Shown: positions 1,310 through 21,029 of the stretch, in pieces | Position numbering within the stretch: position 1 is the stretch's first letter | Layout of the letters: each line of letters begins with the position of its first letter | NCBI GenBank assembly: GCA_045656605.1 | Contig: JAZORO010000070.1 | Span: 731-64,730, forward strand | Length of the DNA: 64,000 bases | DNA from: Eubacteriales bacterium | GTDB taxonomy: Bacteria > Bacillota > Clostridia > Oscillospirales > CAG-272 | Direction of reading: 5' to 3' | Notes under the pieces: model-generated | What the model saw: the letters and a program-made list of their open reading frames with translations, nothing else | Databases searched by the model: none | What the model was told of the DNA's origin: nothing | Position numbers and translations under genes: made by a program

Positions 1310-1341
1310 CAAACCACTAAAATTTGAAAGGCGGTGAGTAT

Positions 1342-2919
1342 ATGACAGGTGTAATTTACGCTCGGTATTCCTCGGATAATCAGCGCGAGGAGTCGATTGA
1401 GGGGCAGATTCGTGAGAATACTGCTTTTGCCGAGAAGAACGGCATTGTTATCGTTGGGCACTACATAGATAGAGCCGTTTCTGCGAAAACGGACAATCGC
1501 CCCGAGTTTCAGCGTATGATACGTGACAGTGCTAAAAAGACATTTGACGTAGTCATAGTTTGGAAGCTTGACCGCTTTTCTCGTAACCGCTACGACAGTG
1601 CGAAATACAAGGCTGCCTTGAAGAAAAATAACGTTCGCGTTGTTTCGGCAACCGAGGCAATCTCGGAAGGTGCAGAGGGCATAATTCTTGAATCGGTGCT
1701 TGAAGGCATGGCGGAATATTATTCAGCCGACCTTGCGGAAAAGGTAACACGGGGGTTAACCGAGAATGCCTTAAAATGCCGTTTTAACGGTGGTAACGGT
1801 CTTCCTTACGGTTATACCGTTGACGAGGAGAAGCATTTTCAAATTGACCCCTTAAAAGCTCCCATAGTGGCTGAAATATTTGAGCGTTACGCTCACGGTG
1901 AATCTATTGCCGAGATAGTACATAGCCTGAACGCACGTGGACTCAAAACACAAAAGGGTAAAGCCTTTAATCACGGCACACTCAACCGAATGCTCGGTAA
2001 CAAATCCTATATGGGCGTGTATCACTACAACGGCATTGAAATTCCGGACGGTGTTCCTGCGATAGTGTTGGAAGATACCTTCAAGGTAGTCGAAAGGCGA
2101 ATGGCACAAAATAAGCACGCATCAGCCAAGAACAAGGCGGAAGAAAAGTACGTGCTTACAACCAAGCTTTTCTGCGGAAAGTGCCACACAATGATGGTCG
2201 GAGACTCCGCGCAAAAGAAAAACGGTAATATCTACCGCTACTACAAATGCGCCAGTGCAAAGAGGCACGAATGCGATAAAAAAGCCGTTCGCAAGGAATG
2301 GATTGAGAAGCTTGTACTGAACAAGGTTATCAAGGTCTTGTTTGATGACGAAGCACTTGATAAGATTGCTGACGAAATAGTCGCTCTGCTTGACGAGGAC
2401 AACAAGGTTATACCGCTTCTTGAGGCTCAACTCAAGGAAGTTCGCAAGTCTATCGACAACGTGATGAAGGCTATCGAGGCAGGAATTATCACTCGTTCAA
2501 CTAAGGCAAAGCTTGAGGAGCTTGAAGCCGAGGAAGAGCAAATCGAGCTTAATATTCTCAAAGAGCAGACAAGCACTCCCAAGCTCACGAAAGAACAAAT
2601 TTTATTTGCTTTGGACAAATTCCGTAAACTTGACTTAACAATCGAGGCAAATAAAGAGCGTTTGATTGACAGTCTTGTGAAATGTGTCTTACTTTATGAT
2701 GATAAGCTCGTTATAACCTTTAATTTCAAAAATGAGCCTGTAACTGTTCCCACAAGCGATGAGCTTCTAGCAATAGAAGGCAGTTCGGATATTGAAGCAT
2801 TTGCTTCACCAAAGCAATCCAATCCGAACTCAGATTGGGTTGCTTTTCTTTTTTGCGACTGTTGCGAGGAGTTTTGCTCGGCGACGCTATCGCAAAGAGC
2901 TCTGAGATACGCCGGATAG
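1342..2919 (+). CDS. large serine recombinase (resolvase/invertase N-domain plus recombinase and zinc-ribbon domains)
   Basis: The N-terminus 'VIYARYSSDNQREESIEGQ' carries the catalytic Ser motif, and 'VWKLDRFSRN' is present. There is a Cys cluster, CGKCHTMM...YYKCASAKRHEC, followed by a coiled-coil region. The start was set at the ATG after GGCGGTGAG. The C-terminal tail is atypical (see findings). Confidence 0.9.
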   Translation: MTGVIYARYSSDNQREESIEGQIRENTAFAEKNGIVIVGHYIDRAVSAKTDNRPEFQRMIRDSAKKTFDVVIVWKLDRFSRNRYDSAKYKAALKKNNVRVVSATEAISEGAEGIILESVLEGMAEYYSADLAEKVTRGLTENALKCRFNGGNGLPYGYTVDEEKHFQIDPLKAPIVAEIFERYAHGESIAEIVHSLNARGLKTQKGKAFNHGTLNRMLGNKSYMGVYHYNGIEIPDGVPAIVLEDTFKVVERRMAQNKHASAKNKAEEKYVLTTKLFCGKCHTMMVGDSAQKKNGNIYRYYKCASAKRHECDKKAVRKEWIEKLVLNKVIKVLFDDEALDKIADEIVALLDEDNKVIPLLEAQLKEVRKSIDNVMKAIEAGIITRSTKAKLEELEAEEEQIELNILKEQTSTPKLTKEQILFALDKFRKLDLTIEANKERLIDSLVKCVLLYDDKLVITFNFKNEPVTVPTSDELLAIEGSSDIEAFASPKQSNPNSDWVAFLFCDCCEEFCSATLSQRALRYAG

Positions 2920-2996
2920 ATGCAAGAGGCTTCGGAATATCCCCCCTTATCGGTGATGAGTAAAAAGGTATTTGGTCTGCTTTTATTAATTCTTTG

Positions 2997-3029
2997 TGCG
3001 CTTATCAGAAAAGCGCATTTTTCTTTTTT
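2997..3029 (+). terminator. rho-independent terminator after the recombinase
   Basis: The stem is TGCGCTT/AAGCGCA with a 7-nt loop, followed by TTTTTCTTTTTT. Confidence 0.6.
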
Positions 3030-3070
3030 CCGCATTGCAAAAGCCGCCATAGCTATTGCGCTCAAAAATA

Positions 3071-3099
3071 TTTACAAAAGCATCTTTGTGTGCTATAAT
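3071..3099 (+). promoter_or_regulatory. strong sigma-70 promoter of the six-gene operon
   Basis: TTTACA (3071-3076), a 17-nt spacer, then TATAAT (3094-3099) with an extended -10 (tgcTATAAT). A GGGGGA RBS precedes the ATG at 3132. Confidence 0.65.
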
Positions 3100-3131
3100 A
3101 AACAAAAGACAAAATTCTCGGGGGAAAATTT

Positions 3132-4289
3132 ATGAACAACGGATGCAGAATAAAAGCGGAGCTGCTCTCGTACGGGGTGCGAATCTCCGACGAGGCAATA
3201 AAGCGCTTCTCCTACCCGTACCTTGTCAAAAGGCGAGCGTACAGCAACACGGACAGTGCCGACTTCTTCTCAATAGATGCGCCTCAAGAAATCATAATTC
3301 TACCTGAGAATATCATTGCGGGCGTAACTCTCAACCACACCTCTCCGTGGCGCATTGAGTACAGCGAAAACGGCTACTATCTGCAAAACTCAAGCACTCT
3401 CGAAAGGTGCGACATCACGTTTACGTTAAAGCCCGATTTCTACGGAATGAAGATATACGACGGTATCAATGCGGAGAACGTAATAACCTATATATTCGGG
3501 CATACGCTCGGCATTTTTGTTAACACGTCCTGCTACTTCGCAACGCCGGAGCGTCACTGTAGATACTGCTCCATACGCTCCAACGGAGCACGTCCAAAGG
3601 ACAACGTAAGAGTGCTCGACCGTGAGCTTATCGCATCTGCGGTGAAGCTGGCAATCGAAAATGACAACGGATTTGTAAGCAGCATATTCATAAGCGGGGG
3701 GAATTTCACGGGCTTTGACGAAAGCTTTTCACGGTATGCGGACATTGCTAAAGGCGTTATGGAAGCCGTGCGCAATTCAGGCAGGGATATCCGAGTTATG
3801 TTAAGTGTTTTCCCGCCCGAAAACAAGGAATTGATTGCTCTTTTATGCGACACGGGTCTTGACATCCTGTTAGGAACAGAGGCGTTCAGTCCCGAAGCAT
3901 ATTCACGCTTCTGCCCCGGGAAATCAAAGGTGCTCTCAAAGGAAAGGCTCAAGGACGTGCTTCGTTACGCAGTCGATATACTTGGCAAAGGGCACGTATA
4001 CAGCATAGTAATACACGGTCTTGAGGACGACGAGGCGGTGGTCGAGGGTGTCGAAGAATACGCAAAGATGGGCGTATGCACAATTGTAAACGTGTTGCAC
4101 CTTGATCCCGGCACGGAGATTATCGATATGGGTGTATCTATACCCTCCCCCGAGTCAATCCTCAGAGTCGCAGGCAAGGTCTCAAAGATATACAGTGAAT
4201 ACGGCTTTGACTCATCAGTCGCATACGGCGGAAGAAGCTCGTTCGATGCGGAGTGCTCTGTTCTTAGTCCGGAGGAATTTGAAAAATGA
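3132..4289 (+). CDS. radical-SAM-like enzyme, copy A1 (non-canonical CX8CX2C cluster motif)
   Basis: 'NTSCYFATPERHCRYCS' places Cys at residues 134, 143 and 146, with an aromatic residue before the last Cys. 'FISGGNFTG' is GGE-like. 'HGLEDDE...VNVLHLDPGTE' resembles the C-terminal half of BioB/ThiH-type radical SAM barrels. It is a paralog of the 5443-6603 protein. Confidence 0.6.
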   Translation: MNNGCRIKAELLSYGVRISDEAIKRFSYPYLVKRRAYSNTDSADFFSIDAPQEIIILPENIIAGVTLNHTSPWRIEYSENGYYLQNSSTLERCDITFTLKPDFYGMKIYDGINAENVITYIFGHTLGIFVNTSCYFATPERHCRYCSIRSNGARPKDNVRVLDRELIASAVKLAIENDNGFVSSIFISGGNFTGFDESFSRYADIAKGVMEAVRNSGRDIRVMLSVFPPENKELIALLCDTGLDILLGTEAFSPEAYSRFCPGKSKVLSKERLKDVLRYAVDILGKGHVYSIVIHGLEDDEAVVEGVEEYAKMGVCTIVNVLHLDPGTEIIDMGVSIPSPESILRVAGKVSKIYSEYGFDSSVAYGGRSSFDAECSVLSPEEFEK

Positions 4290-5407
4290 AAATGAACAAA
4301 AGGATTTATCTTTATATAATAACCGCACTCGTCCTGCCAAGCATATTCCAAGAGGCTCTGATACGCCTCGGAGCTGTCGACGAGGAGCGCAAATGGCTTA
4401 TATACCTGATTCTTACTGCGTCGATAATTGCCGTGGTTCTGCTCGCAGAGTTCGTTATGTGGATCGTATATCTGTGTAAGACCCCATCGGTAGAAACAAT
4501 GCTTGAGAGAATCGACAGAATCGGCGAAAAATACGTTCTCTTCGGAGAAACGAAGATGTTCAACGTGCCGAACTCCGAGTTCGATATGTTCTACGCAAAG
4601 AACGTAAAAAACACCGAGAGCATATTCCGCAACGCACGCCCGCACACCGTGTATCACAGCCTATCTGCCAAAAAGCATTTGAGCTGGGTAGAATTTATTT
4701 TCTGGGATTTTTTAAGAGATTTAAAGGAAGAGCTCGGCTTTAACGTTATGATAGCCTTCCACGAGGATGAAAAAGGACGTGAAAGCGGAGAAAACACGGG
4801 CTCCGAAAGATACAAGGAAATGTGCCGTGAGTTCGCTCAAATCGCAAGAAACCTCATCGGAAAAGACATTAAGATAATAAATGAAGAGGAGTACCTCAAG
4901 CGTCACCCGAGATTATACTGCGACTTTCACAAGGTGTACGTAGAGAAGCTGCTCGAAAGCGCCAAGCTTGTTGCAGAGGGCAAGAGCGACTACAAGGGAT
5001 TCTGCCGAGGACTATCGTTTGCCGAGTCGGTCTTCCCTCTCATTGCCGCCGCAAAGAAGCACGACAGAATCTACGCAATAGACAGAGAAACGGCATTCAA
5101 TATATGGAACTCTCCGCCCCTCGATACGATAAAGAAGGAAGAGAGCATATACTTTATTCTTGCAGAAACTCTGAAGGACCCGGATAACAACCCATTGCAG
5201 ATATTCACCGCAGACGGCACGCTGAATATAACCGACGACCCCGAAACAGTAAGGAAAAAGCTCTTGGGAATGCCGGAGATTACAAGGCAGATAATGTATA
5301 ATATTATCTCGACGAATACTCCTTACACTCCGTCTGTCGAAGGATTCGATGATGTCGATACGGTTTATGAGTGCATAATGTTTATAAAGAATAAATACGC
5401 TATTTAG
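4286..5407 (+). CDS. membrane-anchored protein, copy B1; cytoplasmic domain resembles the class-Ic aaRS (TrpRS/TyrRS) catalytic fold
   Basis: There are two N-terminal hydrophobic helices. Its ATG overlaps the A1 stop (ATGA) and a GGAGGAA SD lies 8 nt upstream. Segments parallel TrpRS motifs (see findings), but HIGH and KMSKS are degenerate. Confidence 0.4.
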   Translation: MKMNKRIYLYIITALVLPSIFQEALIRLGAVDEERKWLIYLILTASIIAVVLLAEFVMWIVYLCKTPSVETMLERIDRIGEKYVLFGETKMFNVPNSEFDMFYAKNVKNTESIFRNARPHTVYHSLSAKKHLSWVEFIFWDFLRDLKEELGFNVMIAFHEDEKGRESGENTGSERYKEMCREFAQIARNLIGKDIKIINEEEYLKRHPRLYCDFHKVYVEKLLESAKLVAEGKSDYKGFCRGLSFAESVFPLIAAAKKHDRIYAIDRETAFNIWNSPPLDTIKKEESIYFILAETLKDPDNNPLQIFTADGTLNITDDPETVRKKLLGMPEITRQIMYNIISTNTPYTPSVEGFDDVDTVYECIMFIKNKYAI

Positions 5408-5442
5408 TAAATAATTATTTACATATTAAAGGATTGAGCCAA

Positions 5443-6603
5443 ATGCATACAAGCAATATAAGGCTGAAGGCCGAGATATTATCAGAAGGAATTTCTTTCT
5501 CCGCACGTGCGCTTGAGAATCTGCCGAGCGACGTACTTGTAAAAAGGCGTGCATATGGAAACCCCGATGAAATAAACGGAACAGAGCTTTCACTTCCGCA
5601 GGAGCTTGTGCTTTTGCCGGAGGGGATAACGGTGGGAATAAGCGCCTCGCTCCTTGCCCCCTTCACTGTCGACTATACGGGGGAAAGGTTTGTCCTTCTG
5701 CGTAACGACGAGTTTAAATGCGAGATAGGCTTTACAAGGTCCCCCGAGTTCTACGGCGCAATATGCGACTCGGGCGAGAAAGTCGAAAACGTGCTCACGT
5801 ACGTATCAGGACATTACCTCGGAATATTCGTAAATACGGCGTGCTACTTTGCCTCCCCCGGAAGGCAGTGCAAGTACTGCTCTATTAGAGCGAACTCCCG
5901 CCGACCCGAAGCGAATCTAAAGAAGGTTACGAAGGAATCCGCAACAAGCGCCGTGAGGCGTGCCGTTGAGCTCTCACGAGATAAATTCGATTTAGTCTTC
6001 ATCAGCGGTGGAAACTTCACAAACAGGGATGAAAATTTTGTTTATTACAGAGACATCGCCTTATCTATAAGGAGCGAACTTAATACCATCGCACCCGAAA
6101 TCGAGGTGGTCTTAAACGTTTTCCCACCGGACAAGCTTGCGCTTATTGATACGCTTTGCGGCAGTGGAATCAACGTGCTTGTCAGCACTGAGGTGTTCTC
6201 TGAAGAGGGATACGCATATCATTGCCCCGGAAAATCCAAAATATTGCCTAAAAAAAGGCTATATACCGTGCTCAAAAGGTACGTAAAAGCACTCGGAAAG
6301 GGTCATGTTTACAGCATAGTAATCCAGGGTCTCGAAAGCACGGACAGTCTTATCGATGGCATATGGGACTATGCAGAAAGGGGAGTGTGCACCGTAGTAA
6401 ACGTATTGCATCTCGACCCTGACACCGAGCTTGCGAAGGAAGGGGCCAAGCGCCCCGACGCCGACGATATACTTAGAGTAGCCAAAGAGCTTGAGAAGGT
6501 ATATTCAAAGCACGGCTTTGATACAAGGCGTATTTACGGCGGAAGAAATTCTTTTGATGCCGAATGCTCTTTAGGACTTATAAGCAAGAAAGGAGATAAC
6601 TAA
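5443..6603 (+). CDS. radical-SAM-like enzyme, copy A2 (CX8CX2C)
   Basis: 'NTACYFASPGRQCKYCS' is present. With the ATG at 5443 the three Cys fall at residues 134, 143 and 146, the same as in A1. It aligns along its full length with A1 ('GKGHVYSIVI.GLE', 'GVCT.VNVLHLDP.TE', 'YGGR.SFDAECS'). Confidence 0.6.
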   Translation: MHTSNIRLKAEILSEGISFSARALENLPSDVLVKRRAYGNPDEINGTELSLPQELVLLPEGITVGISASLLAPFTVDYTGERFVLLRNDEFKCEIGFTRSPEFYGAICDSGEKVENVLTYVSGHYLGIFVNTACYFASPGRQCKYCSIRANSRRPEANLKKVTKESATSAVRRAVELSRDKFDLVFISGGNFTNRDENFVYYRDIALSIRSELNTIAPEIEVVLNVFPPDKLALIDTLCGSGINVLVSTEVFSEEGYAYHCPGKSKILPKKRLYTVLKRYVKALGKGHVYSIVIQGLESTDSLIDGIWDYAERGVCTVVNVLHLDPDTELAKEGAKRPDADDILRVAKELEKVYSKHGFDTRRIYGGRNSFDAECSLGLISKKGDN

Positions 6604-7712
6604 TGAATAAAAAGCTGTTGATATACGTGCTTATGACATTGATTGTTCCTACGCTTACGTCTGAGCTGCTCTCAACATTCTTTGAATTCAACTTTGGCTC
6701 GCCTATCGTTAACGTGCTGATACTGTCTCTGGCGATTATCTTGCTTATACTTATAGTTGAGCTAATCGTGTATTTCTTCCCAAGATTCACGGGTAAGAGC
6801 AAGGCTGCGATAAGCACAAAAATCAAAGAAATCTCCGCTCCGTATAAGCTCCCCTCGGGCAAGCCGTTCTATACCGAGGACTCAAGACTACTCGCCGCTC
6901 TTGCAAGCAAAGACAGCTATAAAAAGCTACCTCTCTTAAGCTACACCTTCTTCTTCGTTGTGATGGTACGGGAGTATTTCAGCTGGATAGAATTCGTCAA
7001 CCTCACACTGCTTGCAAAGCTCGGGCGTGAGCTCGATATTGAGGTAGTAATAATACTCGAAAGCAACGAAAGCTCGCTCGATTCATCCACCCACAGAGCA
7101 AGAGATGCGGCGAGATTCAAGGCGGAAGAGGAAACCTACAAGAGAATTATTACCTCTATATTCGGCGGTAAAGTAACGATAAGAAGCGACTCGTATTACC
7201 GCAAATCGGATTCAAAAAAATACGCTCTTGAATTCCATACGCTTTACGTAAAACGAGTTCTCGGATACGTAAGGGAGCTTGAAGAGGGGAAAATCGATTA
7301 CTCGGCGTTAAGACACAGATTTGCATATCTTGAAGCTATATTCCCCATTATATGTGCGGCAGACAAAAACAAGAGCAAGGAAGTACTCTTCATACTCGAC
7401 AGAGAGAGCTCGAAGGAAACTTGGTCGAGCGCACCTCTGAAGGACAAAATAGAAAAAACGGGAATATACTTTATAAATGCGGCTACGCTGGATGCCGACG
7501 AGAGCACGGGGAAGAATCCCGTTTCTATGCTCAACCTGCTCGCACCGCATATAAAAATCAAAGAACAGCTAAGCGTCCTCTCCGATAAATCGAAGCAAAC
7601 GATACTCTATCTGTTACGAGCGGCGACCGACGACTACGAGCAATACGACGAGAACAAAGACGTCGAGATAACGATGATAATCCAAAAAATCAAGGCAAAG
7701 TACAACATCTGA
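6603..7712 (+). CDS. membrane-anchored protein, copy B2 (divergent paralog of B1)
   Basis: There are two N-terminal TM helices. Its start overlaps the A2 stop (TAATG) and follows an AAGGAG SD. It shares blocks with B1: 'SW(V/I)EF', 'E..FP(L/I)I.AA.K', '(I/L)DRE' and the C-terminal 'IK.KY.I'. Confidence 0.4.
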   Translation: MNKKLLIYVLMTLIVPTLTSELLSTFFEFNFGSPIVNVLILSLAIILLILIVELIVYFFPRFTGKSKAAISTKIKEISAPYKLPSGKPFYTEDSRLLAALASKDSYKKLPLLSYTFFFVVMVREYFSWIEFVNLTLLAKLGRELDIEVVIILESNESSLDSSTHRARDAARFKAEEETYKRIITSIFGGKVTIRSDSYYRKSDSKKYALEFHTLYVKRVLGYVRELEEGKIDYSALRHRFAYLEAIFPIICAADKNKSKEVLFILDRESSKETWSSAPLKDKIEKTGIYFINAATLDADESTGKNPVSMLNLLAPHIKIKEQLSVLSDKSKQTILYLLRAATDDYEQYDENKDVEITMIIQKIKAKYNI

Positions 7713-7722
7713 GGGTCTTTCT

Positions 7723-8877
7723 ATGAATATTAAAATATCCTCATCCGTAAGAGGCGTAAAGCCTATATATATGGGGGATGATTGTTTTCCCATCATATTC
7801 TCAAACATCGGTATGTCAACCGAGTGCGACTCCTTCTCCCGAGAACTTAGCAAGGTACGCGCCGTCGTCGCCGGAGGCGCAGATGCGGTATCCGACCTGA
7901 CGCTCATCGGAGATATCGAGGACGAGCAAAAAAGAATGCTCGAGAGCGTAAGCGTGCCCTTCGCATCAGTGGCGGCGTATGAAGCGTTTTCAAAGGCAAG
8001 AGGCTCCGAGGGTAAAATCCGAGCCGAGGACTTCATAAGAGTATTCGAAAAGCAGGCAGAGCGCGGAGTTGATATAATAACTCTGCACGCCACCGTGTTT
8101 TCATCGGATAATGAAGAGTTGGGAAGGGGCAAAAGAATTATTCCCTGCACCAGCCGAGGCGGAGCTATGATGCTCGAGCTGATGCGTAAGGGGGGGTACG
8201 AAAATCCCTTCTATACATACTTCGACGACATCATTTCGGTATGTAAAAAATACGGCACGTGCATAAGCCTCGGCCCCACCTATCGCCCGGGCTCTGTCGT
8301 AGACGCAGAATTTTCGGACAACCCGCATTTTACCGAGCTGTACCGTATGGCGAAGCTGGCAAAAAAAGCGACGGACGCCGGTGTCGGCATTGCAGTCGAG
8401 GGGATAGGTCACGCTCCGCTCGACAAAATCCCCGACCTTGTAAAAGAGGCGAAAAGAATAACCGGCAACGTGCCATACCGTGTTCTTAACGTAGCGACAG
8501 ATATCGCTATCGGCTTCGACCACGTTTCTTCAGCGATAGGTAGCTCCGTCGCCGTACAGTACGGCGCTGACAGCATAACAGCGGTAACACGCTCGGAGCA
8601 CCTCGGTATACCGACCGAGGTAGACCTCGTTGAAGCGGTAAGGAGCGCAAAGGTTGCGGCGTATTGCGGATATTCGGCAAGAACGGGTATACGAAAACGT
8701 GACGAGGAGATGTCACGAGCGAGAGCAGAGCGAGGCTGTATAGGGTGCTCCGAGGCAGCGCTTTTCCCCGAGCTTGTGAGCGAATATATCGAAAAAAACG
8801 GTATAGAAAAAAAGGACGCTTCCTGCACTATGTGCGGAGATTGCTGTCCGTTCGTTATTCTAGGTAAGAAAGGATAA
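7723..8877 (+). CDS. ThiC-family radical SAM enzyme, short divergent paralog
   Basis: ThiC-like blocks are present: 'NIGMSTE', 'ITLHAT', 'TSRGGA', 'ENPFYTYFDDIISVCKKYG..ISLGPTYRPG', 'EGIGHAP', 'TDIAIGFDHVSSAIG' and 'VTRSEHLGIP'. The C-terminal Cys cluster is 'CTMCGDCC'. At 384 aa it is shorter than typical ThiC. Confidence 0.7.
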   Translation: MNIKISSSVRGVKPIYMGDDCFPIIFSNIGMSTECDSFSRELSKVRAVVAGGADAVSDLTLIGDIEDEQKRMLESVSVPFASVAAYEAFSKARGSEGKIRAEDFIRVFEKQAERGVDIITLHATVFSSDNEELGRGKRIIPCTSRGGAMMLELMRKGGYENPFYTYFDDIISVCKKYGTCISLGPTYRPGSVVDAEFSDNPHFTELYRMAKLAKKATDAGVGIAVEGIGHAPLDKIPDLVKEAKRITGNVPYRVLNVATDIAIGFDHVSSAIGSSVAVQYGADSITAVTRSEHLGIPTEVDLVEAVRSAKVAAYCGYSARTGIRKRDEEMSRARAERGCIGCSEAALFPELVSEYIEKNGIEKKDASCTMCGDCCPFVILGKKG

Positions 8878-8883
8878 TGGCGT

Positions 8884-9426
8884 ATGTCTGACAGTGTTAA
8901 AGAAGAAGTATGGGATCTTTACGACGCAAGAGGTGTGAAGACCGGACTCGTCGTATCGAGGAGCGATAGGATTCCCGAGGGGCTATACCACCCGGTTGTG
9001 CACGTATGCGTCTTCAACGAAAAGGGAGAAATGCTCATACAAAAGAGAAATGCAGACAAGGCTCTTGAGCCCGACAAGTGGGACGTATCGAGCGGCGGAG
9101 GAGGTATATGCGGTGAAGAAATATACGAATCTGCCGAAAGAGAGCTCAAGGAAGAGCTCGGGATAATTGCAGATTTATCTAACACGCCCCCGCACGTTAC
9201 TCTGTTTTTTGAAACAGGATTTGATACTTATTATATTATCAAGGTAGACTCTCACACCTTCTCTCCGAGTATTCAGAAAAAAGAGATACAGGCTGTAGAT
9301 TGGGTGACAGAGGATAAGATTCTCTCTATGATAGAAAGCGGCAGCTTTGCGTCCTTCAAAAAGAGCTTTATATCTATGCTCTTCGAGCTGAAGGAAACAA
9401 GAGGCTCTCTATCATATAACGTATAA
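8884..9426 (+). CDS. Nudix hydrolase
   Basis: The Nudix box is 'GGGGICGEEIYESAERELKEELGI' (GX5EX7REUXEEXGU). It starts 6 nt after the ThiC-like stop. Confidence 0.85.
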   Translation: MSDSVKEEVWDLYDARGVKTGLVVSRSDRIPEGLYHPVVHVCVFNEKGEMLIQKRNADKALEPDKWDVSSGGGGICGEEIYESAERELKEELGIIADLSNTPPHVTLFFETGFDTYYIIKVDSHTFSPSIQKKEIQAVDWVTEDKILSMIESGSFASFKKSFISMLFELKETRGSLSYNV

Positions 9427-9448
9427 GAATAAAGCTATAACGAAAGCA

Positions 9449-9480
9449 AAGAGCGGGTGCCGTAAGGCTTACCCGCTCTT
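9449..9480. terminator. bidirectional stem-loop terminator between the convergent operon and the udk-like gene
   Basis: A 10-bp stem, AAGAGCGGGT/ACCCGCTCTT, is followed by ATTATTT. Confidence 0.55.
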
Positions 9481-9489
9481 ATTATTTCA

Positions 9490-10425
9490 TTAATACAAAT
9501 GCTCGTATATTCCGCCGGGAATGAACTCTCTTATGAGCGAGTTATCCGGTACACGGGACTCGTCTATCGGGTATATCTCCTTCATAGCCTCAAGGACTAT
9601 ACTTGCGTACGGATCCTTCTTTGCTAACGAGTCGTCGATAAGCGAGAGAGCTCTATCTCTCATTACTCCGGGCTCAAACGGGTGGAAGGTATTGAAAGCG
9701 AGGTCTGCAGTCTCCTTATATGGGTAGAGATAAACGTCCTCGGCGTTCAAAACGCCTCTCCACATCGAGAGAGTTCTCTCGGCGTCAGCGCCCCTATATA
9801 TACTGTCTCTCACCATACGCCTTACGAATCTCAGCTTCCTGCCGGAGAGAATCCTCTCTTCCCCCTTGTTTATATTCGTCGATACGCTGACGAAAAGACG
9901 CAGTATTCTATCCGTCGGTATGCCTGAATAGATTTTCGGATTCAAGGCGTGCAGACCCTCTATGATTACGCACCCGTCGGGCATTGCAGGATAGCTTCTT
10001 TCTTCAACACGCCTCCCCTCTTTAAAATCATAGCGAGGAAGTGTGAAGCTCTCGGAGTTCGCTATTTTCATAAGCGTATCCGAGATAAACGAGAGGTGCA
10101 AAGCCTCCGGACACTCGTAGTCAGGCGTTCCGTCCGAATGCATAGGGTACTCGGGCGAGCCGGAATCCTTATAGAAGTCGTCCAAAGATACGACCATAGC
10201 ATCCTCGCCCCTTGCAACTATTGCATCCTTCAACAGGTTTGCAGTAGTAGTCTTGCCCGAGCCGGACGGTCCCGCAAGCAGTATTATCTTTATTTTTTCG
10301 TGCCCCGTCACGTAGTCTGCAAGCCCACCTATCCTAAAGCGATAAGACTCCTCGGCATCCATAATCATACGGTCGGGGGCTTCTTTCGCCTCTTTGTTCA
10401 GTAAATCAACATCAATCTCAGCCAT
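9490..10425 (-). CDS. uridine kinase-family nucleoside kinase (P-loop)
   Basis: It has the Walker A motif 'LAGPSGSGKTT' and 'VIIEGLHALNP', and its length is typical for this family. The start was set at MAEIDV, which follows GGGAGGAG. Confidence 0.7.
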   Translation of the reverse strand: MAEIDVDLLNKEAKEAPDRMIMDAEESYRFRIGGLADYVTGHEKIKIILLAGPSGSGKTTTANLLKDAIVARGEDAMVVSLDDFYKDSGSPEYPMHSDGTPDYECPEALHLSFISDTLMKIANSESFTLPRYDFKEGRRVEERSYPAMPDGCVIIEGLHALNPKIYSGIPTDRILRLFVSVSTNINKGEERILSGRKLRFVRRMVRDSIYRGADAERTLSMWRGVLNAEDVYLYPYKETADLAFNTFHPFEPGVMRDRALSLIDDSLAKKDPYASIVLEAMKEIYPIDESRVPDNSLIREFIPGGIYEHLY

Positions 10426-10526
10426 AGCTCCTCCCACAATTTACAGAGAGCATAATCTTTATTCTGTCAGCTATATTTCGCTTCGCTGTACAAATATTAT
10501 ATGTACGAAAAAGGAAGGTGTGAGTG

Positions 10527-17435: not shown

Positions 17436-20400
17436 TTAGCTGTAGAAGTCAACCATCTTCTTAAGTCTCTCGTACTTCGCCTTTGCGGAAGCCTCAGCCT
17501 TTGCGAAGAGCTCCTTCGCTCTCTCGGGGAATGCCTGAGCAAGACGAGTGTAACGAGCCTCTCCGCCGATGAAGTCCTGATAAGAAGCTGTGGGCTCCTT
17601 GGAATCAAGGGAGAAGGGATTCTTGCCCTCTGCCTTAAGAGCAGGGTTGAATCTGAAGAGCTGCCAGTAGCCGGCCTCAACAGCCTTCTTCATCTCAGCC
17701 TGGCAGTTAGCCATACCGCCCTTGATGGAGTGCATCTCACAAGGAGCGTAACCGATGATGATGGAAGGTCCGGGATAAGCCTCAGCCTCTGCCATAGCCT
17801 TAAGAGTCTGGTTCATATCAGCGCCCATAGCAACCTGTGCTACGTAAACGTAACCGTAGGACATAGCGATCTCTGCAAGATTCTTCTTGCCGATAGCCTT
17901 ACCTGCCGCTGCGAACTGAGCAACCTGACCGATGTTAGAAGCCTTGGAAGCCTGTCCGCCGGTATTGGAGTAAACCTCGGTATCGAATACCATAACGTTT
18001 ACGTCCTCGCCGGATGCAAGCACGTGGTCAAGACCACCGAATCCGATATCGTATGCCCAACCGTCTCCACCGAAGATCCATACTGCCTTCTTCGAAAGGA
18101 ATGCCTTCTCAGCAAGGATAGCGGGAGCAACGGGACAGCCTGCAGCTGCAGCCTTCTCAAGCTCAACTACGAGAGCCTTGGTAGCAGCCTCGTTAGCCTT
18201 ACCGTCCTCAAGAGTAGAGAGGTAAGCATCGGCAGCTGCCTTGAACTCAGCGGATGCCTTATCGGACTCTGCCATAGCTCTAACCTTTTTAATGAGCTTC
18301 TCACGAACAGCCTTCTGACCTACGTACATACCAAGACCGTGCTCTGCGTTATCCTCGAACAGCGAGTTAGCCCAAGCGGGTCCTCTGCCGCTCTCCTTGT
18401 TTACGGTGTAAGGAGTTGCAGGAGCGGAGCCACCCCAGATAGAGGAGCATCCGGTAGCGTTGGATATATACATTCTCTCACCGAAGAGCTGGGTGATAAG
18501 ACGAGCGTAGGAGGTCTCTGCACAGCCTGCGCAAGAGCCGGAGTACTCGAGAAGGGGCTGCTTGAACTGGCTACCCTTGATGCTGGTAGCGACAAGTTCG
18601 GTCTTCTCAGATACGTTAGCAACAGCGTAGTCGTATGCAGCCTGCTGATCAAGCTGAGTAGCGATAGGCTTCATCTCAATTGCGGGAGCCTTGCCGGTCT
18701 TCGCAGAGTTTGCGGTAACGGGGCAAGCCTTTACGCAAAGAGTACATCCCATACAGTCAAGCGGAGAAACAGCCATAGTGAACTTGTACTCGGTCTTAGC
18801 AACGTTGTTCTTTGTGAACTTGGTAACAGCGGGAGCTGCCTCTGCCTCTGCGGCAGTCATTGCGAAGGGACGGATACAAGCGTGAGGACATACGAATGCA
18901 CAGTTGTTACACTGGATACAGGTCTCGGGATTCCACTGAGGAACGGTAACCGCAACACCTCTCTTCTCATATGCGGAAGAGCCCTGGGGGAAGGTACCGT
19001 CAGCGTACTTAGCAAAGGTAGCAACAGAGAGTGTGTCACCCTTCATTGCGCCTACGGGAACAACGATATCGTTTACGAAATCGATGAGGTCAGCTCTCTT
19101 ACCGGAGAACTTAGCTGCGGGTGCGGTAACACCTGCGTCAGCCCAAGCTGCGGGAACGTCAACGGATACGATAGCATCCTTACCTGCGTCGATAGCCGCA
19201 TAGTTGAGGTCAACGATAGCCTGTCCCTTCTTGATGTAGGACTTGTAAGCAGCCTTCTTCATATGCTCGATAGCTTCGTCGATGGGAAGAATCTTAGCAA
19301 GAGTGAAGAATGCAGACTGAAGAACGGTGTTCTTTACCTTAGCGTTACCGAGGTCGATAGCAATCTTGGTAGCGTTGATGATGTAGAACTTAACGTTATT
19401 CTTTGCGATATAGCTCTTAACCGATGCGGGAAGATGAGCATCAAGCTCGTCTACAGACCAGGGGCAGTCAAGAAGGAATGCGCCGCCCGGCTTAACGTCG
19501 GAGATCATATCGTACTTTGCAAGATATGCGTTGTTGAGGCAAGCAACGAAGTCAGCCTTGCTGATATAGTAAGAAGACTTGATGGGGCTGTCACCGAATC
19601 TGAGGTGAGAAATGGTGATACCTCCGGTCTTCTTGGAGTCATACTGGAAGTAAGCCTGAATGAACTTATCGGTATGGTCGCCTATGATCTTGATAGAGTT
19701 CTTGTTTGCACCAACGGTTCCGTCGCCGCCAAGACCCCAGAATTTGCACTGAATCATATCAGAGGGTGCAGTGTCGGGAGCTGCAGTCTCGGTAAGAGAA
19801 AGACCGGTAAGATCGTCAACGATACCAACGGTGAAGTGGCACTTAGGCTCAGCCTTAGCCATATTCTCGTAGATAGCGAAGATAGAAGCGGGAGTAGTAT
19901 CCTTAGAGCCAAGACCGTATCTGCCGCCGAGAACCTTCACGCCGCATCTGCCAACCTCGTTGAGAGCTGCGATAACGTCGAGGTAAAGGGGCTCGCCAAG
20001 AGAGCCGGGCTCCTTTGTTCTGTCAAGAACGGATACAACCTTTGCGCTTGCGGGAATAGCCTCAGCAAGCTTAGCCGCAACGAAGGGTCTGTAAAGACGA
20101 ACCTTAACAAGACCAACCTTCTCGCCCTTAGCAAGAAGATAATCAATAACCTCCTCTGCAACGTCGCAAACCGAGCCCATAGCGATAATAACACGCTCAG
20201 CATCGGGTGCGCCGTAGTAGTTGAAGAGCTTGTAATCGGTACCGAGCTTAGCGTTAACCTTACCCATATACTCCTCAACGATTGCGGGAAGAGCATCGTA
20301 GTAGGGGTTGCAAGCCTCTCTGTGCTGGAAGAAGATGTCGCCGTTCTCAGCCGAGCCGCGAAGTACGGGATGCTCAGGGTTGAGAGCTCTGTCACGGAAT

Positions 20401-21029
20401 GCCTGTACAGCATCCATATCAACCATCTCGAGAAGATCCTTATAATCCCAAGCGGCAACCTTCTGTACCTCGTGAGAGGTTCTGAAGCCGTCGAAGAAGT
20501 TAAGGAAAGGAACTCTACCCTTGATAGTAGCTAGGTGAGCAACTGCACCAAGGTCCATAATCTCCTGTGCGTTGGTCTCAGCAAGCATAGCAAAGCCGGT
20601 CTGGCGGCAAGCATAAACGTCCGAGTGATCGCCGAAGATGTTAAGAGCGTGGGAAGCTACGCATCTTGCGGAAACGTGAATAACGCAGGGCAGAAGCTCG
20701 CCCGCAATCTTATACATATTCGGGATCATAAGAAGAAGACCCTGAGAAGCAGTATAAGTGGTGGTGAGAGCGCCTGCACCAAGAGAACCGTGAACAGCGC
20801 CTGCTGCGCCTGCCTCAGACTGCATCTCTACAACCTTAACGTTCTCGCCGAAGATGTTCTTAGCGGGCTCGCCAAAGATGTTCTTGTCGGATGCAGACCA
20901 AGTGTCTGTTACTTCCGCCATAGGGCTGGAAGGGGTGATAGGATAGATAGCAGCAACCTCTGTGAACGCATAGGATACGTGCGCCGCAGCGGTGTTACCA
21001 TCCATAGAAATTTTCTTTCTTTCTATCAT
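17436..21029 (-). CDS. nifJ: pyruvate:ferredoxin (flavodoxin) oxidoreductase
   Basis: The protein is about 1200 aa with 'MDGNTAAAHVSYAF', two ferredoxin-type motifs (CIQCNNCAFVCPH and CMGCTLCVKACP) and the TPP domain motif 'GGDGWAYDIGFGG'. The start is probably MIERKK after GGAGGAAAAACC; an alternative ATG lies at 21044. Confidence 0.95.
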   Translation of the reverse strand: MIERKKISMDGNTAAAHVSYAFTEVAAIYPITPSSPMAEVTDTWSASDKNIFGEPAKNIFGENVKVVEMQSEAGAAGAVHGSLGAGALTTTYTASQGLLLMIPNMYKIAGELLPCVIHVSARCVASHALNIFGDHSDVYACRQTGFAMLAETNAQEIMDLGAVAHLATIKGRVPFLNFFDGFRTSHEVQKVAAWDYKDLLEMVDMDAVQAFRDRALNPEHPVLRGSAENGDIFFQHREACNPYYDALPAIVEEYMGKVNAKLGTDYKLFNYYGAPDAERVIIAMGSVCDVAEEVIDYLLAKGEKVGLVKVRLYRPFVAAKLAEAIPASAKVVSVLDRTKEPGSLGEPLYLDVIAALNEVGRCGVKVLGGRYGLGSKDTTPASIFAIYENMAKAEPKCHFTVGIVDDLTGLSLTETAAPDTAPSDMIQCKFWGLGGDGTVGANKNSIKIIGDHTDKFIQAYFQYDSKKTGGITISHLRFGDSPIKSSYYISKADFVACLNNAYLAKYDMISDVKPGGAFLLDCPWSVDELDAHLPASVKSYIAKNNVKFYIINATKIAIDLGNAKVKNTVLQSAFFTLAKILPIDEAIEHMKKAAYKSYIKKGQAIVDLNYAAIDAGKDAIVSVDVPAAWADAGVTAPAAKFSGKRADLIDFVNDIVVPVGAMKGDTLSVATFAKYADGTFPQGSSAYEKRGVAVTVPQWNPETCIQCNNCAFVCPHACIRPFAMTAAEAEAAPAVTKFTKNNVAKTEYKFTMAVSPLDCMGCTLCVKACPVTANSAKTGKAPAIEMKPIATQLDQQAAYDYAVANVSEKTELVATSIKGSQFKQPLLEYSGSCAGCAETSYARLITQLFGERMYISNATGCSSIWGGSAPATPYTVNKESGRGPAWANSLFEDNAEHGLGMYVGQKAVREKLIKKVRAMAESDKASAEFKAAADAYLSTLEDGKANEAATKALVVELEKAAAAGCPVAPAILAEKAFLSKKAVWIFGGDGWAYDIGFGGLDHVLASGEDVNVMVFDTEVYSNTGGQASKASNIGQVAQFAAAGKAIGKKNLAEIAMSYGYVYVAQVAMGADMNQTLKAMAEAEAYPGPSIIIGYAPCEMHSIKGGMANCQAEMKKAVEAGYWQLFRFNPALKAEGKNPFSLDSKEPTASYQDFIGGEARYTRLAQAFPERAKELFAKAEASAKAKYERLKKMVDFYS

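What the first reader, a model, noticed from the sequence alone, without database searches (positions are those of the whole stretch)
7723..8877. Short, divergent ThiC-family paralog with an altered C-terminal cysteine motif
The protein keeps most ThiC core blocks ('ITLHAT', 'SRGGA', 'ENPFY..FD....C.KY...SLG...RPG', 'EG.GH.P', 'TDIA.G.DH..SAIG', 'SEHLG.P'). However, it is only 384 aa, lacks the long N-terminal region of many ThiCs, and has substitutions in otherwise conserved blocks: 'VLNVATD' where I recall 'LGP..TD', and 'VTRSEHL' where I recall 'VTPAEHL'. It ends in 'CTMCGDCC' rather than the CX2CX4C spacing I associate with ThiC. ThiC homologs have been recruited to other chemistry before: BzaA, BzaB and BzaF make 5-hydroxybenzimidazole from the same substrate. 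A divergent copy embedded in an accessory operon may therefore make a different heterocycle.
Basis: partly seen in the sequence, partly recalled or inferred. Interest (0 to 1): 0.65.

Follow-up and report, generated by a model that had tools for sequence, protein, structure and literature searches.

The report
Remodelled ThiC-like enzyme in defence cassette
This gene encodes a relative of the thiamine-pyrimidine synthase ThiC that keeps the radical-generating machinery but has lost the residues needed to make the vitamin precursor, and it belongs to a rare undescribed subfamily found beside nucleotide enzymes and membrane proteins in bacterial anti-phage gene islands.

Summary
The ORF at 7723-8877 is real: 384 aa, Pfam ThiC_Rad_SAM at E 6e-96. 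It scores below every NCBIfam cut-off for ThiC and BzaB.

The conserved cysteines are C368, C371 and C375, giving CX2CX3C. Bona fide short-form ThiCs have the same spacing.

The active site does distinguish it. In 142 clade members against 131 true ThiCs:
- The cluster, second-metal, SAM, 5'-dAdo and phosphate ligands are all kept.
- Asp383 (At numbering) is never Asp.
- Tyr449 is always Arg.
- The catalytic Cys474 (Cc numbering) is Thr.
- Pro487 is always Arg, and an invariant Trp is Cys.

Published D383A and C474S ThiC mutants make no HMP-P. BzaF has Asn at the Asp383 position, and this clade does not.

The clade is monophyletic and rare, and I found no members in the viral or phage collections. 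It forms the only shared gene of three cassette types. Its partners are Nudix, nucleoside/nucleotide kinases, deaminases and two-TM proteins with ligand-binding folds. Several cassettes lie next to Lamassu, Gabija, Mokosh-like and other defence genes.

There is no TPP riboswitch and there are no thi genes nearby.

Best reading: a new ThiC-derived radical SAM enzyme that makes a nucleotide-like molecule in a defence system. The product is unknown.

The parts
7723..8877 (+). ThiC-like radical SAM enzyme (ThiCL), 384 aa. It is the core gene of the cassette and a member of the 'RRC' subfamily (R253, R290, C339).
   Evidence: Pfam PF01964, 322 bits. Below the ThiC and BzaB equivalog cut-offs. Clade-specific active-site substitutions. 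Clade is monophyletic.
3132..4289 (+). Variant radical SAM protein A, 385 aa, with a CX8CX2C cluster motif (C134, C143, C146).
   Evidence: NCBIfam NF045502 variant_rSAM, 208 bits against a cut-off of 125. Pfam Radical_SAM. AF2 model pLDDT 93.9, and Foldseek returns only generic rSAM cores such as AprD4, PFL-AE and LIAS. Only 29 homologous clusters were found; several have a longest contig of the same length as a ThiCL cluster, so they probably share contigs.
4286..5407 (+). Membrane-anchored class-Ic aminoacyl-tRNA-synthetase-like protein A, 373 aa. Two N-terminal TM helices followed by a TyrRS/TrpRS-like Rossmann domain.
   Evidence: No Pfam hit. AF2 pLDDT 88.1, pTM 0.84. Foldseek top hits are TyrRS/TrpRS at E about 1e-7 and TM-score about 0.5. 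TM segments at 7-26 and 35-67. The family has only 47 representatives among 1.84 billion proteins.
5434..6603 (+). Variant radical SAM protein B, 389 aa; paralog of A.
   Evidence: 47% identical to A. NF045502, 207 bits.
6603..7712 (+). Membrane-anchored aaRS-like protein B, 369 aa; divergent paralog of A.
   Evidence: 26% identical to A over 264 aa, E 1e-24. TM segments at 5-24 and 28-64.
8884..9426 (+). Nudix hydrolase, 180 aa, with an intact Nudix box (GGGICGEEIYESAERELKEELG).
   Evidence: Pfam NUDIX, E 9e-15. Found directly after ThiCL in all type-1 cassettes where the downstream sequence is present; in L001/L002 an AAA_17 kinase follows ThiCL instead.
3071..3099 (+). Promoter-like site of the six-gene operon: TTTACA, 17 nt spacer, TATAAT with an upstream TG.
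   Evidence: Matches 11 of 12 consensus positions, preceded by a terminator-like hairpin at 2996-3018. This is a consensus match only.
9450..9489 (+). Inverted repeat AGAGCGGGT...ACCCGCTCT followed by a T-rich tract. Likely the operon terminator, shared with the convergent gene.
   Evidence: Read directly from the sequence. Not reported by the terminator scan.
1324..2919 (+). Large serine recombinase directly upstream. Context only; it suggests the cassette lies on or next to a mobile element.
   Evidence: Pfam Resolvase, Recombinase and Zn_ribbon_recom.

Best explanation
The gene encodes a ThiC-derived, non-canonical radical SAM enzyme that no longer makes HMP-P. It is not an HBI synthase either.

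Shown by residue conservation:
- It keeps everything needed to bind the [4Fe-4S] cluster and the second metal.
- It keeps the residues that bind SAM and 5'-dAdo.
- It keeps the phosphate and ribose anchor of a 5'-phosphoribosyl substrate.
- The pocket that holds the aminoimidazole of AIR has been rebuilt, and so has the cysteine that finishes pyrimidine formation. The replacements are clade-invariant.

Inferred: it uses 5'-dAdo radical chemistry on a different phosphoribosyl compound (a nucleotide or nucleotide precursor) to make a modified nucleotide-like small molecule.

Inferred from neighbourhoods: this enzyme is the constant core of modular cassettes that function in phage defence or a similar conflict.

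Favoured but weakest step, for the window's type-1 cassette:
- The product, possibly further tailored by the variant rSAM proteins, is a ligand for the membrane-anchored aaRS-like partners. These would act as effectors.
- The Nudix hydrolase, and the kinases present in sister loci, set or clear the phosphorylation state of the product.

Layered confidence:
- Not an orthodox ThiC or Bza protein: about 0.85.
- Nucleotide-type chemistry in a defence or conflict cassette: about 0.55.
- Ligand for two-TM effector model: about 0.3.
For: Family scores:
- Below the ThiC and BzaB equivalog cut-offs: 322 against 410, 287 against 460, 212 against 650, and 254 against 700.
- True short ThiCs score 560-655.

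Residues, comparing 142 clade members with 131 ThiCs. Roles come from the AtThiC structures (PMC4389238).
- Kept: Y86, H122, S144, R145 (Lys in the six sister-branch members), G146 and R188 (phosphate and SAM carboxylate); E226 (ribose); H230 and H293 (second metal); E292 (dAdo ribose); M370; C368, C371 and C375.
- Changed: D383 to P/T/A/C (0 of 142 are Asp); Y449 to R (142 of 142); Cc-Cys474 to T (139 of 142); P487 to R (142 of 142); W to C339 (142 of 142).

Published mutants and comparison:
- AtThiC D383A and CcThiC C474S consume AIR but make no HMP-P (PMC11117688).
- BzaF differs from ThiC at this position by Asn (PMC12661338).

Phylogeny: the clade is monophyletic in an NJ tree. Identity to ThiC is 34%, against 46-51% within groups.

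Cassettes. ThiCL is the only shared gene of three cassette types. Its partners are:
- Nudix, dNK, AAA_17, thymidylate-kinase-like and HD proteins.
- Cytidine deaminase and a cupin.
- Two-TM proteins with an aaRS-like domain or a GAF-like domain (weak).

The active-site triad at positions 28/59/185 tracks cassette type.

Defence context:
- The cassette directly follows LmuA/LmuC/LmuB in L096 and GajB in L095.
- It lies near PD-Lambda-3_B in L166, a MkoA-like gene in L169 and PDC-M33A/B/C in L168.
- Neighbours elsewhere match mad3, CARF and MTase models.

Other points:
- A serine recombinase lies upstream in the window.
- There is no TPP riboswitch and no thi genes nearby.
- The doubled rSAM plus two-TM pairs recur in independent contigs, consistent with cognate enzyme-receptor pairs.
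Against: - There is no biochemical or phage-challenge evidence of any kind. The substrate and product are unknown.
- None of the cassette proteins except a weak Nudix hit matches PADLOC models.
- Defence-island association was seen in roughly a quarter of the loci with usable flanks. It was not compared with a matched background.
- Radical SAM enzymes of the ThiC type are slow. ThiC gives at most 0.3 product per enzyme in vitro (PMC11117688), which is awkward for a fast signalling role.
- The kinases fit a substrate-supply or antimetabolite model at least as well as a signalling model.
- Type-2 cassettes have no TM protein.
- The aaRS-like assignment rests on an AF2 model with TM-scores near 0.5. 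The GAF-like assignment rests on E 0.011.
- One sister-branch locus (L099) looks like a secondary-metabolite cluster and not like a defence system.
Confidence: 0.45

Rival explanations
1. Viperin-like antimetabolite model. ThiCL converts a common nucleoside monophosphate into an analogue. Neighbouring kinases raise it to the triphosphate, and it poisons phage polymerases. Nudix supplies the monophosphate substrate or protects the host. The two-TM proteins are regulators or unrelated.
For: - Nucleoside or nucleotide kinases recur in all cassette types: AAA_17, dNK and thymidylate-kinase-like.
- A Nudix follows ThiCL in type 1, in every locus where the downstream sequence is present except L001/L002.
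- The phosphate anchor for a monophosphate is conserved.
- ThiC abstracts the 5' and 4' hydrogens of a ribotide (PMC11117688). Viperin also starts at the 4' position (my own knowledge).
- The defence-island context applies here too.
Against: - It does not explain why a two-TM protein with a ligand-binding fold sits next to ThiCL in types 1 and 3.
- It does not explain why rSAM plus two-TM pairs are duplicated together.
- Type-2 cassettes have neither a kinase nor a Nudix.
Confidence: 0.25
2. Secondary-metabolite model. The cassette makes a nucleoside-type antibiotic or a thiamine/pyrimidine antivitamin used against competing bacteria. The membrane proteins serve in export or self-protection.
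For: - The sister-branch locus L099 places ThiCL between a B12-rSAM, a PhyH-like dioxygenase, a divergent SHMT-like protein and a carbamoyltransferase. This gene set recalls high-carbon nucleoside antibiotic pathways (my own knowledge).
- Tailoring-type partners (cupin, deaminase, Nudix) are present.
- Distribution is patchy and linked to mobile elements.
Against: - Two TM helices are not a transporter.
- Most cassettes are only 3-6 genes and lack typical export or resistance genes.
- Repeated adjacency to Lamassu, Gabija, Mokosh-like and PDC systems fits defence islands better.
Confidence: 0.15
3. Orthodox or merely fast-evolving HMP-P synthase (ThiC) serving thiamine biosynthesis.
For: - Strong Pfam ThiC match.
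- The cluster, metal, SAM and phosphate residues are intact.
- The host uses TPP enzymes such as PFOR.
- No other thiC is present in the 64 kb window.
- Some database records name clade members 'phosphomethylpyrimidine synthase'.
Against: - It scores below all ThiC equivalog cut-offs.
- Asp383 and Cc-Cys474 are replaced. Single mutations at either abolish HMP-P formation (PMC11117688).
- Tyr449 is replaced by Arg.
- There is no TPP riboswitch, and no thiD, thiE, thiG or thiS neighbours appear in any locus.
- The clade is rare and linked to mobile elements.
Confidence: 0.04
4. BzaA/BzaB/BzaF-type 5-hydroxybenzimidazole synthase for the cobamide lower ligand.
For: - Same superfamily.
- There is precedent for ThiC paralogs recruited to other chemistry on AIR (PMC12661338).
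Against: - TIGR04386 (BzaB) scores 254 bits against a cut-off of 700. That is lower than true ThiCs score on the same model (480-584).
- BzaF keeps a ThiC-like active site with Asn at position 383. This clade has P/T/A/C there and also lacks Tyr449 and the catalytic Cys.
- No cob or bza genes appear in any cassette.
Confidence: 0.02

Closest known systems
ThiC (phosphomethylpyrimidine synthase; Pfam PF01964, NCBIfam NF009895/TIGR00190)
   Same: - Same fold and domain order over residues 11-379.
- Same C-terminal cluster motif as short-form ThiC (CX2CX3C).
- Same second-metal histidines, SAM and 5'-dAdo contacts, and phosphate/ribose anchor.
   Different: - About 47 residues shorter at the N-terminus than even short ThiC.
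- 34% identity to ThiC.
- Below the equivalog cut-offs.
- Asp383, Tyr449, Cc-Cys474, Pro487 and a conserved Trp are replaced by P/T/A, R, T, R and C.
- No TPP riboswitch and no thi neighbours.
- Rare, and found in defence or mobile contexts.
BzaF / BzaA-BzaB (5-hydroxybenzimidazole synthase)
   Same: A ThiC paralog recruited to a different product. This is the precedent for neofunctionalisation in the family (PMC12661338).
   Different: - BzaF keeps the AIR pocket, with Asn for Asp383.
- The present clade dismantles that pocket.
- Its score on the BzaB model is far below the cut-off.
- It has no cobamide gene context.
Prokaryotic viperins (pVips) with neighbouring nucleotide kinases
   Same: This is a functional analogy only. 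Both are radical SAM enzymes acting on a nucleotide, encoded in defence islands and often beside nucleotide kinases (the kinase and defence context for this clade is shown).
   Different: - No homology.
- Viperins are canonical CX3CX2C rSAM enzymes that act on NTPs.
- ThiCL is a non-canonical ThiC-fold enzyme with a monophosphate anchor.
- The product is unknown.
Signal-plus-effector defence systems with two-TM effectors (Pycsar PycTM, CBASS two-TM effectors)
   Same: - Similar architecture: one small-molecule-making enzyme is constant.
- The adjacent partners vary and combine two TM helices with a ligand-binding domain.
   Different: - No cyclase or CD-NTase is present.
- The putative synthase is a radical SAM enzyme.
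- The ligand-binding domains are aaRS-like or GAF-like.
- No experimental link between product and effector exists.
MSMEG_0568-type variant radical SAM proteins (NCBIfam NF045502 / TIGR04043)
   Same: The two rSAM genes of the operon match the 'variant_rSAM' domain model over its full length.
   Different: - Only 58-83 bits on the MSMEG_0568 equivalog, whose cut-off is 304.
- Different gene context.
- Function is unknown in both cases.

Membership tests
ThiC (HMP-P synthase) | ThiC_Rad_SAM fold/domain (PF01964) | tested here: met
   322 bits, E 6e-96. PDB ThiC chains match at E 9e-46.
ThiC (HMP-P synthase) | Score at or above the curated equivalog cut-off (NF009895 410; TIGR00190 460; NF006763 650) | tested here: not met
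   322, 287 and 212 bits. Control short ThiCs score 560-655 on NF009895.
ThiC (HMP-P synthase) | C-terminal three-cysteine [4Fe-4S] motif with the Met that packs on adenine | tested here: met
   C368-T-M370-C371-G-D-C-C375. C368, C371, C375 and M370 are invariant in the clade. The spacing is the same as in short-form ThiC.
ThiC (HMP-P synthase) | Second-metal histidines, SAM/5'-dAdo contacts and phosphate anchor (At H426, H490, R386, E489, Y286, H322, S342-G344, E422) | tested here: met
   H230, H293, R188, E292, Y86, H122, S144-G146 and E226 are conserved.
ThiC (HMP-P synthase) | AIR imidazole contacts Asp383 and Tyr449 | tested here: not met
   Pro185 and Arg253 in the window protein. 0 of 142 clade members have Asp and 142 of 142 have Arg. 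In ThiC, 131 of 131 have Asp and 128 of 131 have Tyr. D383A makes no HMP-P.
ThiC (HMP-P synthase) | Catalytic cysteine (Cys474 of CcThiC) | tested here: not met
   Thr286. 139 of 142 clade members have Thr, against 131 of 131 Cys in ThiC. C474S makes no HMP-P.
ThiC (HMP-P synthase) | Thiamine regulon context (TPP riboswitch, thi genes). Usual but not strictly defining. | tested here: not met
   No Rfam hit in the window. The UTR is about 30 nt. No thi genes appear in any of about 26 loci.
ThiC (HMP-P synthase) | Converts AIR to HMP-P; complements a thiC mutant | not testable with these tools
   Needs anaerobic enzymology or genetics.
BzaA/BzaB/BzaF (HBI synthase) | Score at or above the TIGR04386 cut-off (700) | tested here: not met
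   254 bits.
BzaA/BzaB/BzaF (HBI synthase) | ThiC-like AIR pocket with Asn at the Asp383 position | tested here: not met
   Pro in the window protein; P/T/A/C in the clade. The BzaF feature is taken from PMC12661338. No Bza sequence was available for direct alignment.
BzaA/BzaB/BzaF (HBI synthase) | Cobamide lower-ligand gene context (cobT, bzaC-E) | tested here: not met
   Absent from the operon and from related loci.
Anti-phage defence system (generic) | Recurrent location in defence islands or on mobile elements | tested here: met
   Neighbours include Lamassu, GajB, PD-Lambda-3_B, a MkoA-like gene, PDC-M33A-C, mad3 and CARF. A serine recombinase, an integrase and IS elements are nearby. 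No matched background control was run.
Anti-phage defence system (generic) | Match to a described defence family | tested here: not met
   PADLOC gives no hit for ThiCL, the rSAM proteins or the two-TM proteins. The Nudix matches PDC-S07 only weakly. No literature was found.
Anti-phage defence system (generic) | Protects cells from phage | not testable with these tools
   Needs phage-challenge experiments.

The most novel reading that the evidence does not exclude
ThiC-like enzymes are a new class of immune small-molecule synthases. A radical-SAM rearrangement of a phosphoribosyl compound would yield a nucleotide-derived messenger. That messenger would be read by interchangeable membrane effectors: two TM helices plus an aaRS-like domain, or two TM helices plus a GAF-like domain. 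Nudix, kinases and deaminases would tune or clear it. This would be the first radical-SAM-made second messenger in prokaryotic immunity, and a third chemistry for the ThiC fold.
Probability: 0.3. Interest if true: 0.9.

Novelty: new variant of a known kind. Interest (0 to 1): 0.72.

Why it matters
Only two chemistries are known for the ThiC fold: HMP-P and 5-hydroxybenzimidazole. Both start from AIR. This clade is cleanly delimited and keeps the radical machinery and the phosphate anchor, but it has a rebuilt base pocket and lacks the catalytic cysteine. That makes it a ready-made test case for how this fold steers one of the most complex known radical cascades.

Its steady association with nucleotide enzymes, membrane-anchored ligand-binding proteins and known defence systems suggests a new small-molecule branch of bacterial immunity, or otherwise a new nucleoside natural product.

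It also has a practical consequence. Several of these proteins are named 'phosphomethylpyrimidine synthase' in public records. That would wrongly credit their hosts with thiamine pyrimidine synthesis in metabolic reconstructions of gut and rumen bacteria.

Tried and rejected
1. The cysteine motif as the distinguishing feature: rejected. CX2CX3C is the norm in short ThiCs.
2. TPP riboswitch or any Rfam family in the window: none.
3. A second thiC in the window: none. The rest of the genome could not be examined.
4. PADLOC on the cassette proteins: no hits except a weak Nudix match.
5. Literature searches for ThiC-like proteins in defence or with Nudix/rSAM partners: nothing relevant. The 'Ophion' rSAM defence system is a different gene set.
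6. Phage origin: no clade member in IMG/VR or in GenBank phage records. The only matches were ordinary ThiCs at 31-35% identity.
7. Sequence searches of the two-TM protein against PDB, Pfam and NCBIfam: only a marginal TrpRS hint at E 0.09. It was resolved by an AF2 model plus Foldseek.
8. Foldseek of the variant rSAM: only generic rSAM cores, with no substrate clue.
9. Pfam on the type-2 partner (185 aa), the F8 protein and the 218-aa ORF at 56-712: no assignment.
11. Source record of the window: the look-up found no exact match.
Full report
**1. The observation**

The ORF at 7723..8877 (+) starts with ATG and encodes 384 aa. The protein matches Pfam ThiC_Rad_SAM with E 6.1e-96, residues 11-379 on profile positions 47-417 of 420. 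It matches solved ThiC structures at E 9e-46. So it is a real member of the ThiC superfamily, and it lacks about 47 N-terminal positions of even the short-form model.

It falls below every curated NCBIfam cut-off:

| Model | Score (bits) | Cut-off |
|---|---|---|
| NF009895 (ThiC) | 322 | 410 |
| TIGR00190 (ThiC) | 287 | 460 |
| NF006763 (ThiC) | 212 | 650 |
| TIGR04386 (BzaB) | 254 | 700 |

No Rfam family reaches its gathering score anywhere in the 64 kb. No second thiC is present in the window.

**2. The cysteine motif is a red herring**

I aligned 38 relatives. The invariant cysteines are C368, C371 and C375, giving CX2CX3C. C374 is variable. The same spacing (CSMCGEFC, CTMCGKYC, CTMCGQYC) is found in many ~400-450-aa ThiC homologues from bacteria and archaea. 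Seven of these were checked and score 560-655 bits on the ThiC equivalog NF009895. CX2CX4C (CSMCGPKFC) belongs to the longer cyanobacterial, proteobacterial and plant forms (PMC4389238).

**3. What does set it apart**

I aligned 273 non-identical family members with MAFFT and compared 142 clade members with 131 bona fide ThiCs. The clade includes a small sister branch. Residue roles come from the AtThiC complexes (PMC4389238).

Conserved in both groups:
- Phosphate and SAM carboxylate anchor: Y86, H122, S144, R145 (Lys in the six sister-branch members), G146, R188.
- Ribose ligand: E226.
- Second-metal histidines: H230 and H293.
- 5'-dAdo ligand: E292.
- M370 and the three cluster cysteines.

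Changed, in a clade-invariant way:

| Reference residue | Role | In the clade | In ThiC |
|---|---|---|---|
| At-Asp383 | H-bond to N3 of AIR | P/T/A/C at position 185; 0 of 142 Asp | 131 of 131 Asp |
| At-Tyr449 | Stacks on the AIR amino group | R253, 142 of 142 | Tyr 128, Phe 3 |
| Cc-Cys474 | Catalytic cysteine | T286, 139 of 142 | 131 of 131 Cys |
| At-Pro487 | – | R290, 142 of 142 | 131 of 131 Pro |
| Invariant Trp | – | C339, 142 of 142 | 131 of 131 Trp |
| At-Pro424 | – | I228 | Pro (131 of 131) |

Published mutants bear directly on this. AtThiC D383A consumes AIR but makes no HMP-P, and D383N is only partly active. CcThiC C474S makes no HMP-P (PMC11117688). BzaF is reported to have a ThiC-like pocket with Asn at position 383 (PMC12661338), and the clade does not have this.

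In a neighbour-joining tree at 80% non-redundancy, the 92 clade sequences are monophyletic against 56 ThiCs. Mean identity is 34% between groups and 46-51% within them.

The protein is therefore neither an orthodox ThiC nor a Bza protein. It is a member of a distinct subfamily that keeps the radical-generating and phosphoribosyl-anchoring parts and has rebuilt the rest of the pocket.

**4. The operon**

- A promoter-like site lies at 3071-3099 (11 of 12 consensus positions, with TG). It follows a terminator-like hairpin at 2996-3018.
- Six tightly packed genes run from 3132 to 9426.
- They end at an inverted repeat plus T-tract at 9450-9489.

Gene order:
1. Variant rSAM A, 3132-4289.
2. Two-TM protein A, 4286-5407.
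3. Variant rSAM B, 5434-6603.
4. Two-TM protein B, 6603-7712.
5. ThiCL, 7723-8877.
6. Nudix, 8884-9426.

The rSAM proteins match NCBIfam NF045502 'variant_rSAM' (208 and 207 bits, cut-off 125). They carry an invariant CX8CX2C motif and are 47% identical to each other. An AF2 model (pLDDT 93.9) matches only generic rSAM cores.

The two-TM proteins are 26% identical to each other and have no Pfam hit. An AF2 model (pLDDT 88, pTM 0.84) shows two N-terminal helices, which are predicted TM segments. These are followed by a class-Ic aminoacyl-tRNA-synthetase-like domain; the top Foldseek hits are TyrRS/TrpRS at E about 1e-7 and TM-score about 0.5. The HIGH-like stretch is degenerate and no KMSKS motif is evident (my reading). 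A ligand-binding role therefore seems more likely than an adenylating one.

This family is tiny, with 47 representatives among 1.84 billion proteins. The cassette-specific rSAM family is also small, with 29 clusters; several have a longest contig of the same length as a ThiCL cluster, so they probably share contigs.

A large serine recombinase lies just upstream at 1324-2919. Downstream, convergent genes are ordinary housekeeping genes: a uridine-kinase-family protein, a GreA-like ORF, an acetate-kinase-like ORF (both judged by eye from the translations) and inorganic pyrophosphatase.

**5. Relatives elsewhere**

The clade is rare. About 210 clusters were found in the 5.8-billion-protein collection through the word index. 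At least six loci were found among 185,579 species genomes: Clostridia MAGs, a Gastranaerophilales MAG and the cultured Pumilibacter muris. A few were found in JGI metagenomes. No members were found in IMG/VR or in GenBank phage records.

I clustered the neighbours of 26 non-redundant loci, supported. ThiCL is the only gene shared by three cassette types:
- **Type 1:** variant rSAM, two-TM aaRS-like protein, ThiCL, Nudix, with or without AAA_17, dNK or HD. The window's doubled rSAM plus two-TM layout recurs in L170 and L172. A 1b variant has dNK and no variant rSAM.
- **Type 2:** ThiCL followed by an unassigned 185-aa protein. Upstream lie HTH proteins or a 292-306-aa protein.
- **Type 3:** cupin, ThiCL and a 231-241-aa protein. 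That protein has two TM helices and a GAF-like domain. The GAF assignment is weak: a profile search hits PDE6 GAF-A at E 0.011. Cytidine deaminase and a thymidylate-kinase-like gene are sometimes present.

One locus (L091) has a dCTP-deaminase-like gene (E 4e-36) and a dNK-like gene directly upstream.

The residues at positions 28, 59 and 185 correspond to At N228, L259 and D383. They track cassette type:

| Cassette type | Positions 28-59-185 |
|---|---|
| 1a | N-L-P |
| 1b | H-V-P |
| 2 | S-H-A/C/S |
| 3 | S-H-T |

This argues that the pocket and the partners evolve together.

**6. Defence context**

PADLOC models match the immediate neighbours of several cassettes:
- L096: a complete Lamassu system directly upstream, with LmuA 3e-42, LmuC 4e-10 and LmuB 2e-129.
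- L095: GajB at 5e-206.
- L166: PD-Lambda-3_B at 1e-63, plus an SNF2 helicase.
- L169: a MkoA-like helicase at 4e-79.
- L168: PDC-M33B and PDC-M33C.

A scan of 135 neighbour proteins from 20 loci adds mad3 (three proteins), a second MkoA-like protein, PDC-M33A, a CARF protein and type II methyltransferases. Integrases, a serine recombinase and IS elements are also nearby. I did not run a matched background, so the enrichment is a judgement and not a statistic.

None of the cassette proteins themselves match PADLOC, apart from a weak Nudix hit. I found no paper describing this clade.

**7. Mechanism**

Shown by conservation: the enzyme can bind the cluster, the second metal and SAM, and it keeps the phosphate and ribose anchor of a 5'-phosphoribosyl substrate. 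It lacks the residues required to hold aminoimidazole and to finish HMP-P.

Inferred: the 5'-dAdo radical attacks C5' or C4' of a different phosphoribosyl compound, probably a nucleotide, given the Nudix, kinase and deaminase partners. Two new invariant arginines (R253, R290), T286 and C339 would shape a new pocket.

Inferred from context: the product acts in phage defence or a related conflict.

I favour a model in which ThiCL is the constant small-molecule synthase and the adjacent, interchangeable membrane-anchored proteins are ligand-gated effectors. In type 1 the co-duplicated rSAM plus two-TM pairs would be cognate tailoring-enzyme and receptor pairs. Nudix and the kinases would set or clear the phosphorylation state. 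This last layer is the weakest, at about 0.3.

The main rival is a viperin-like antimetabolite model, which explains the kinases better and the two-TM proteins worse. A secondary-metabolite reading is kept alive by L099. There a sister-branch ThiCL sits with a B12-rSAM, a PhyH-like dioxygenase, a divergent SHMT-like protein and a carbamoyltransferase. Orthodox ThiC and Bza functions are unlikely.

**8. Novelty and verdict**

This is a new, well-delimited functional variant of a known enzyme family, inside gene cassettes that are not in the defence catalogues searched. Nothing about its chemistry or biology has been tested.

Limits of this analysis:
- No Bza sequences were available for the tree.
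- The rest of the host genome was not seen.
- The fold assignments of the partner proteins are of moderate strength (aaRS-like) or weak strength (GAF-like).
- The defence association has no background control.

Interest is 0.72.

Noticed in passing
L099:579-8672 (soil metagenome contig Ga0134125_10000597): A sister-branch ThiC-like gene (2992-4269) lies in a cluster that looks like a biosynthetic gene cluster. The other genes are a B12-binding radical SAM, a PhyH-like 2OG/Fe(II) dioxygenase, a divergent SHMT-like protein, a carbamoyltransferase and a normal SHMT, followed by an IS110 transposase. From my own knowledge, the dioxygenase plus SHMT-like pair recalls the uridine-5'-aldehyde and glycyluridine steps of high-carbon nucleoside antibiotics. 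That would fit a nucleotide substrate attacked at C5'.
   Followed up: partly
L091:6695-9748: A dCTP-deaminase-like gene (PF22769, E 4e-36) and a dNK-like kinase sit directly upstream of a ThiC-like gene, and a one-TM protein sits downstream. This pair could be a split version of the known kinase-dCTP-deaminase nucleotide-depletion defence, or it could be part of the ThiCL cassette.
   Followed up: partly
window 3132-4289 and 5434-6603: Both radical SAM proteins use an unusual CX8CX2C cluster motif (C134, C143, C146) and have an invariant C261-P-G-K264. They belong to NCBIfam 'variant_rSAM' and are distantly related to the MSMEG_0568 family. The N-terminal ~130 residues form a separate beta-rich domain in the AF2 model.
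   Followed up: partly
window 9490-10437 (-): A 315-aa phosphoribulokinase/uridine-kinase-family protein lies convergent to the cassette and immediately after it. It is followed by a GreA-like ORF and an acetate-kinase-like ORF (judged by eye from the translations), so it is probably housekeeping. However, sister cassettes carry a nucleoside or nucleotide kinase inside the operon and this one does not.
   Followed up: no
window 1324-2919 and 56-712: The large serine recombinase ORF contains a strong terminator-like hairpin at 2811-2846. It also has a cysteine-rich, odd-looking tail, so its true stop may lie earlier. The 218-aa ORF at 56-712 has no Pfam, NCBIfam or PADLOC match. The island boundaries and att sites were not determined, because the left end may lie outside the window.
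   Followed up: no
window 17436-21044 (-) and 31428-33914 (+): The host encodes thiamine-diphosphate enzymes: pyruvate:ferredoxin oxidoreductase and an E1/transketolase-type protein. It therefore needs thiamine. Whether it has a true thiC or imports the vitamin could not be seen from this window.
   Followed up: no
alignment position 287 of the window protein (clade-wide): Next to the Thr that replaces the catalytic Cys474 of CcThiC, 83 of 142 clade members carry a Cys one position later. The window protein has Ala there. This could be a shifted catalytic cysteine in part of the clade.
   Followed up: no
L011 (Pumilibacter muris CLA-AA-M08, NZ_CALPCN010000006.1) 5431-9643: A cultured mouse-gut isolate carries a type-2 cassette: two HTH proteins, ThiC-like, then a 185-aa protein. 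A ~470-aa ORF that looks like an integrase (judged by eye only) and phage-like genes lie nearby. This is a tractable organism for experiments.
   Followed up: partly
database records for P0014, P0015, P0024, P0026, P0034, P0085 and others: Several clade members are named 'phosphomethylpyrimidine synthase (ThiC)' by JGI or NCBI. Given the missing catalytic residues, this is probably a misannotation, and it would inflate predicted thiamine prototrophy.
   Followed up: partly
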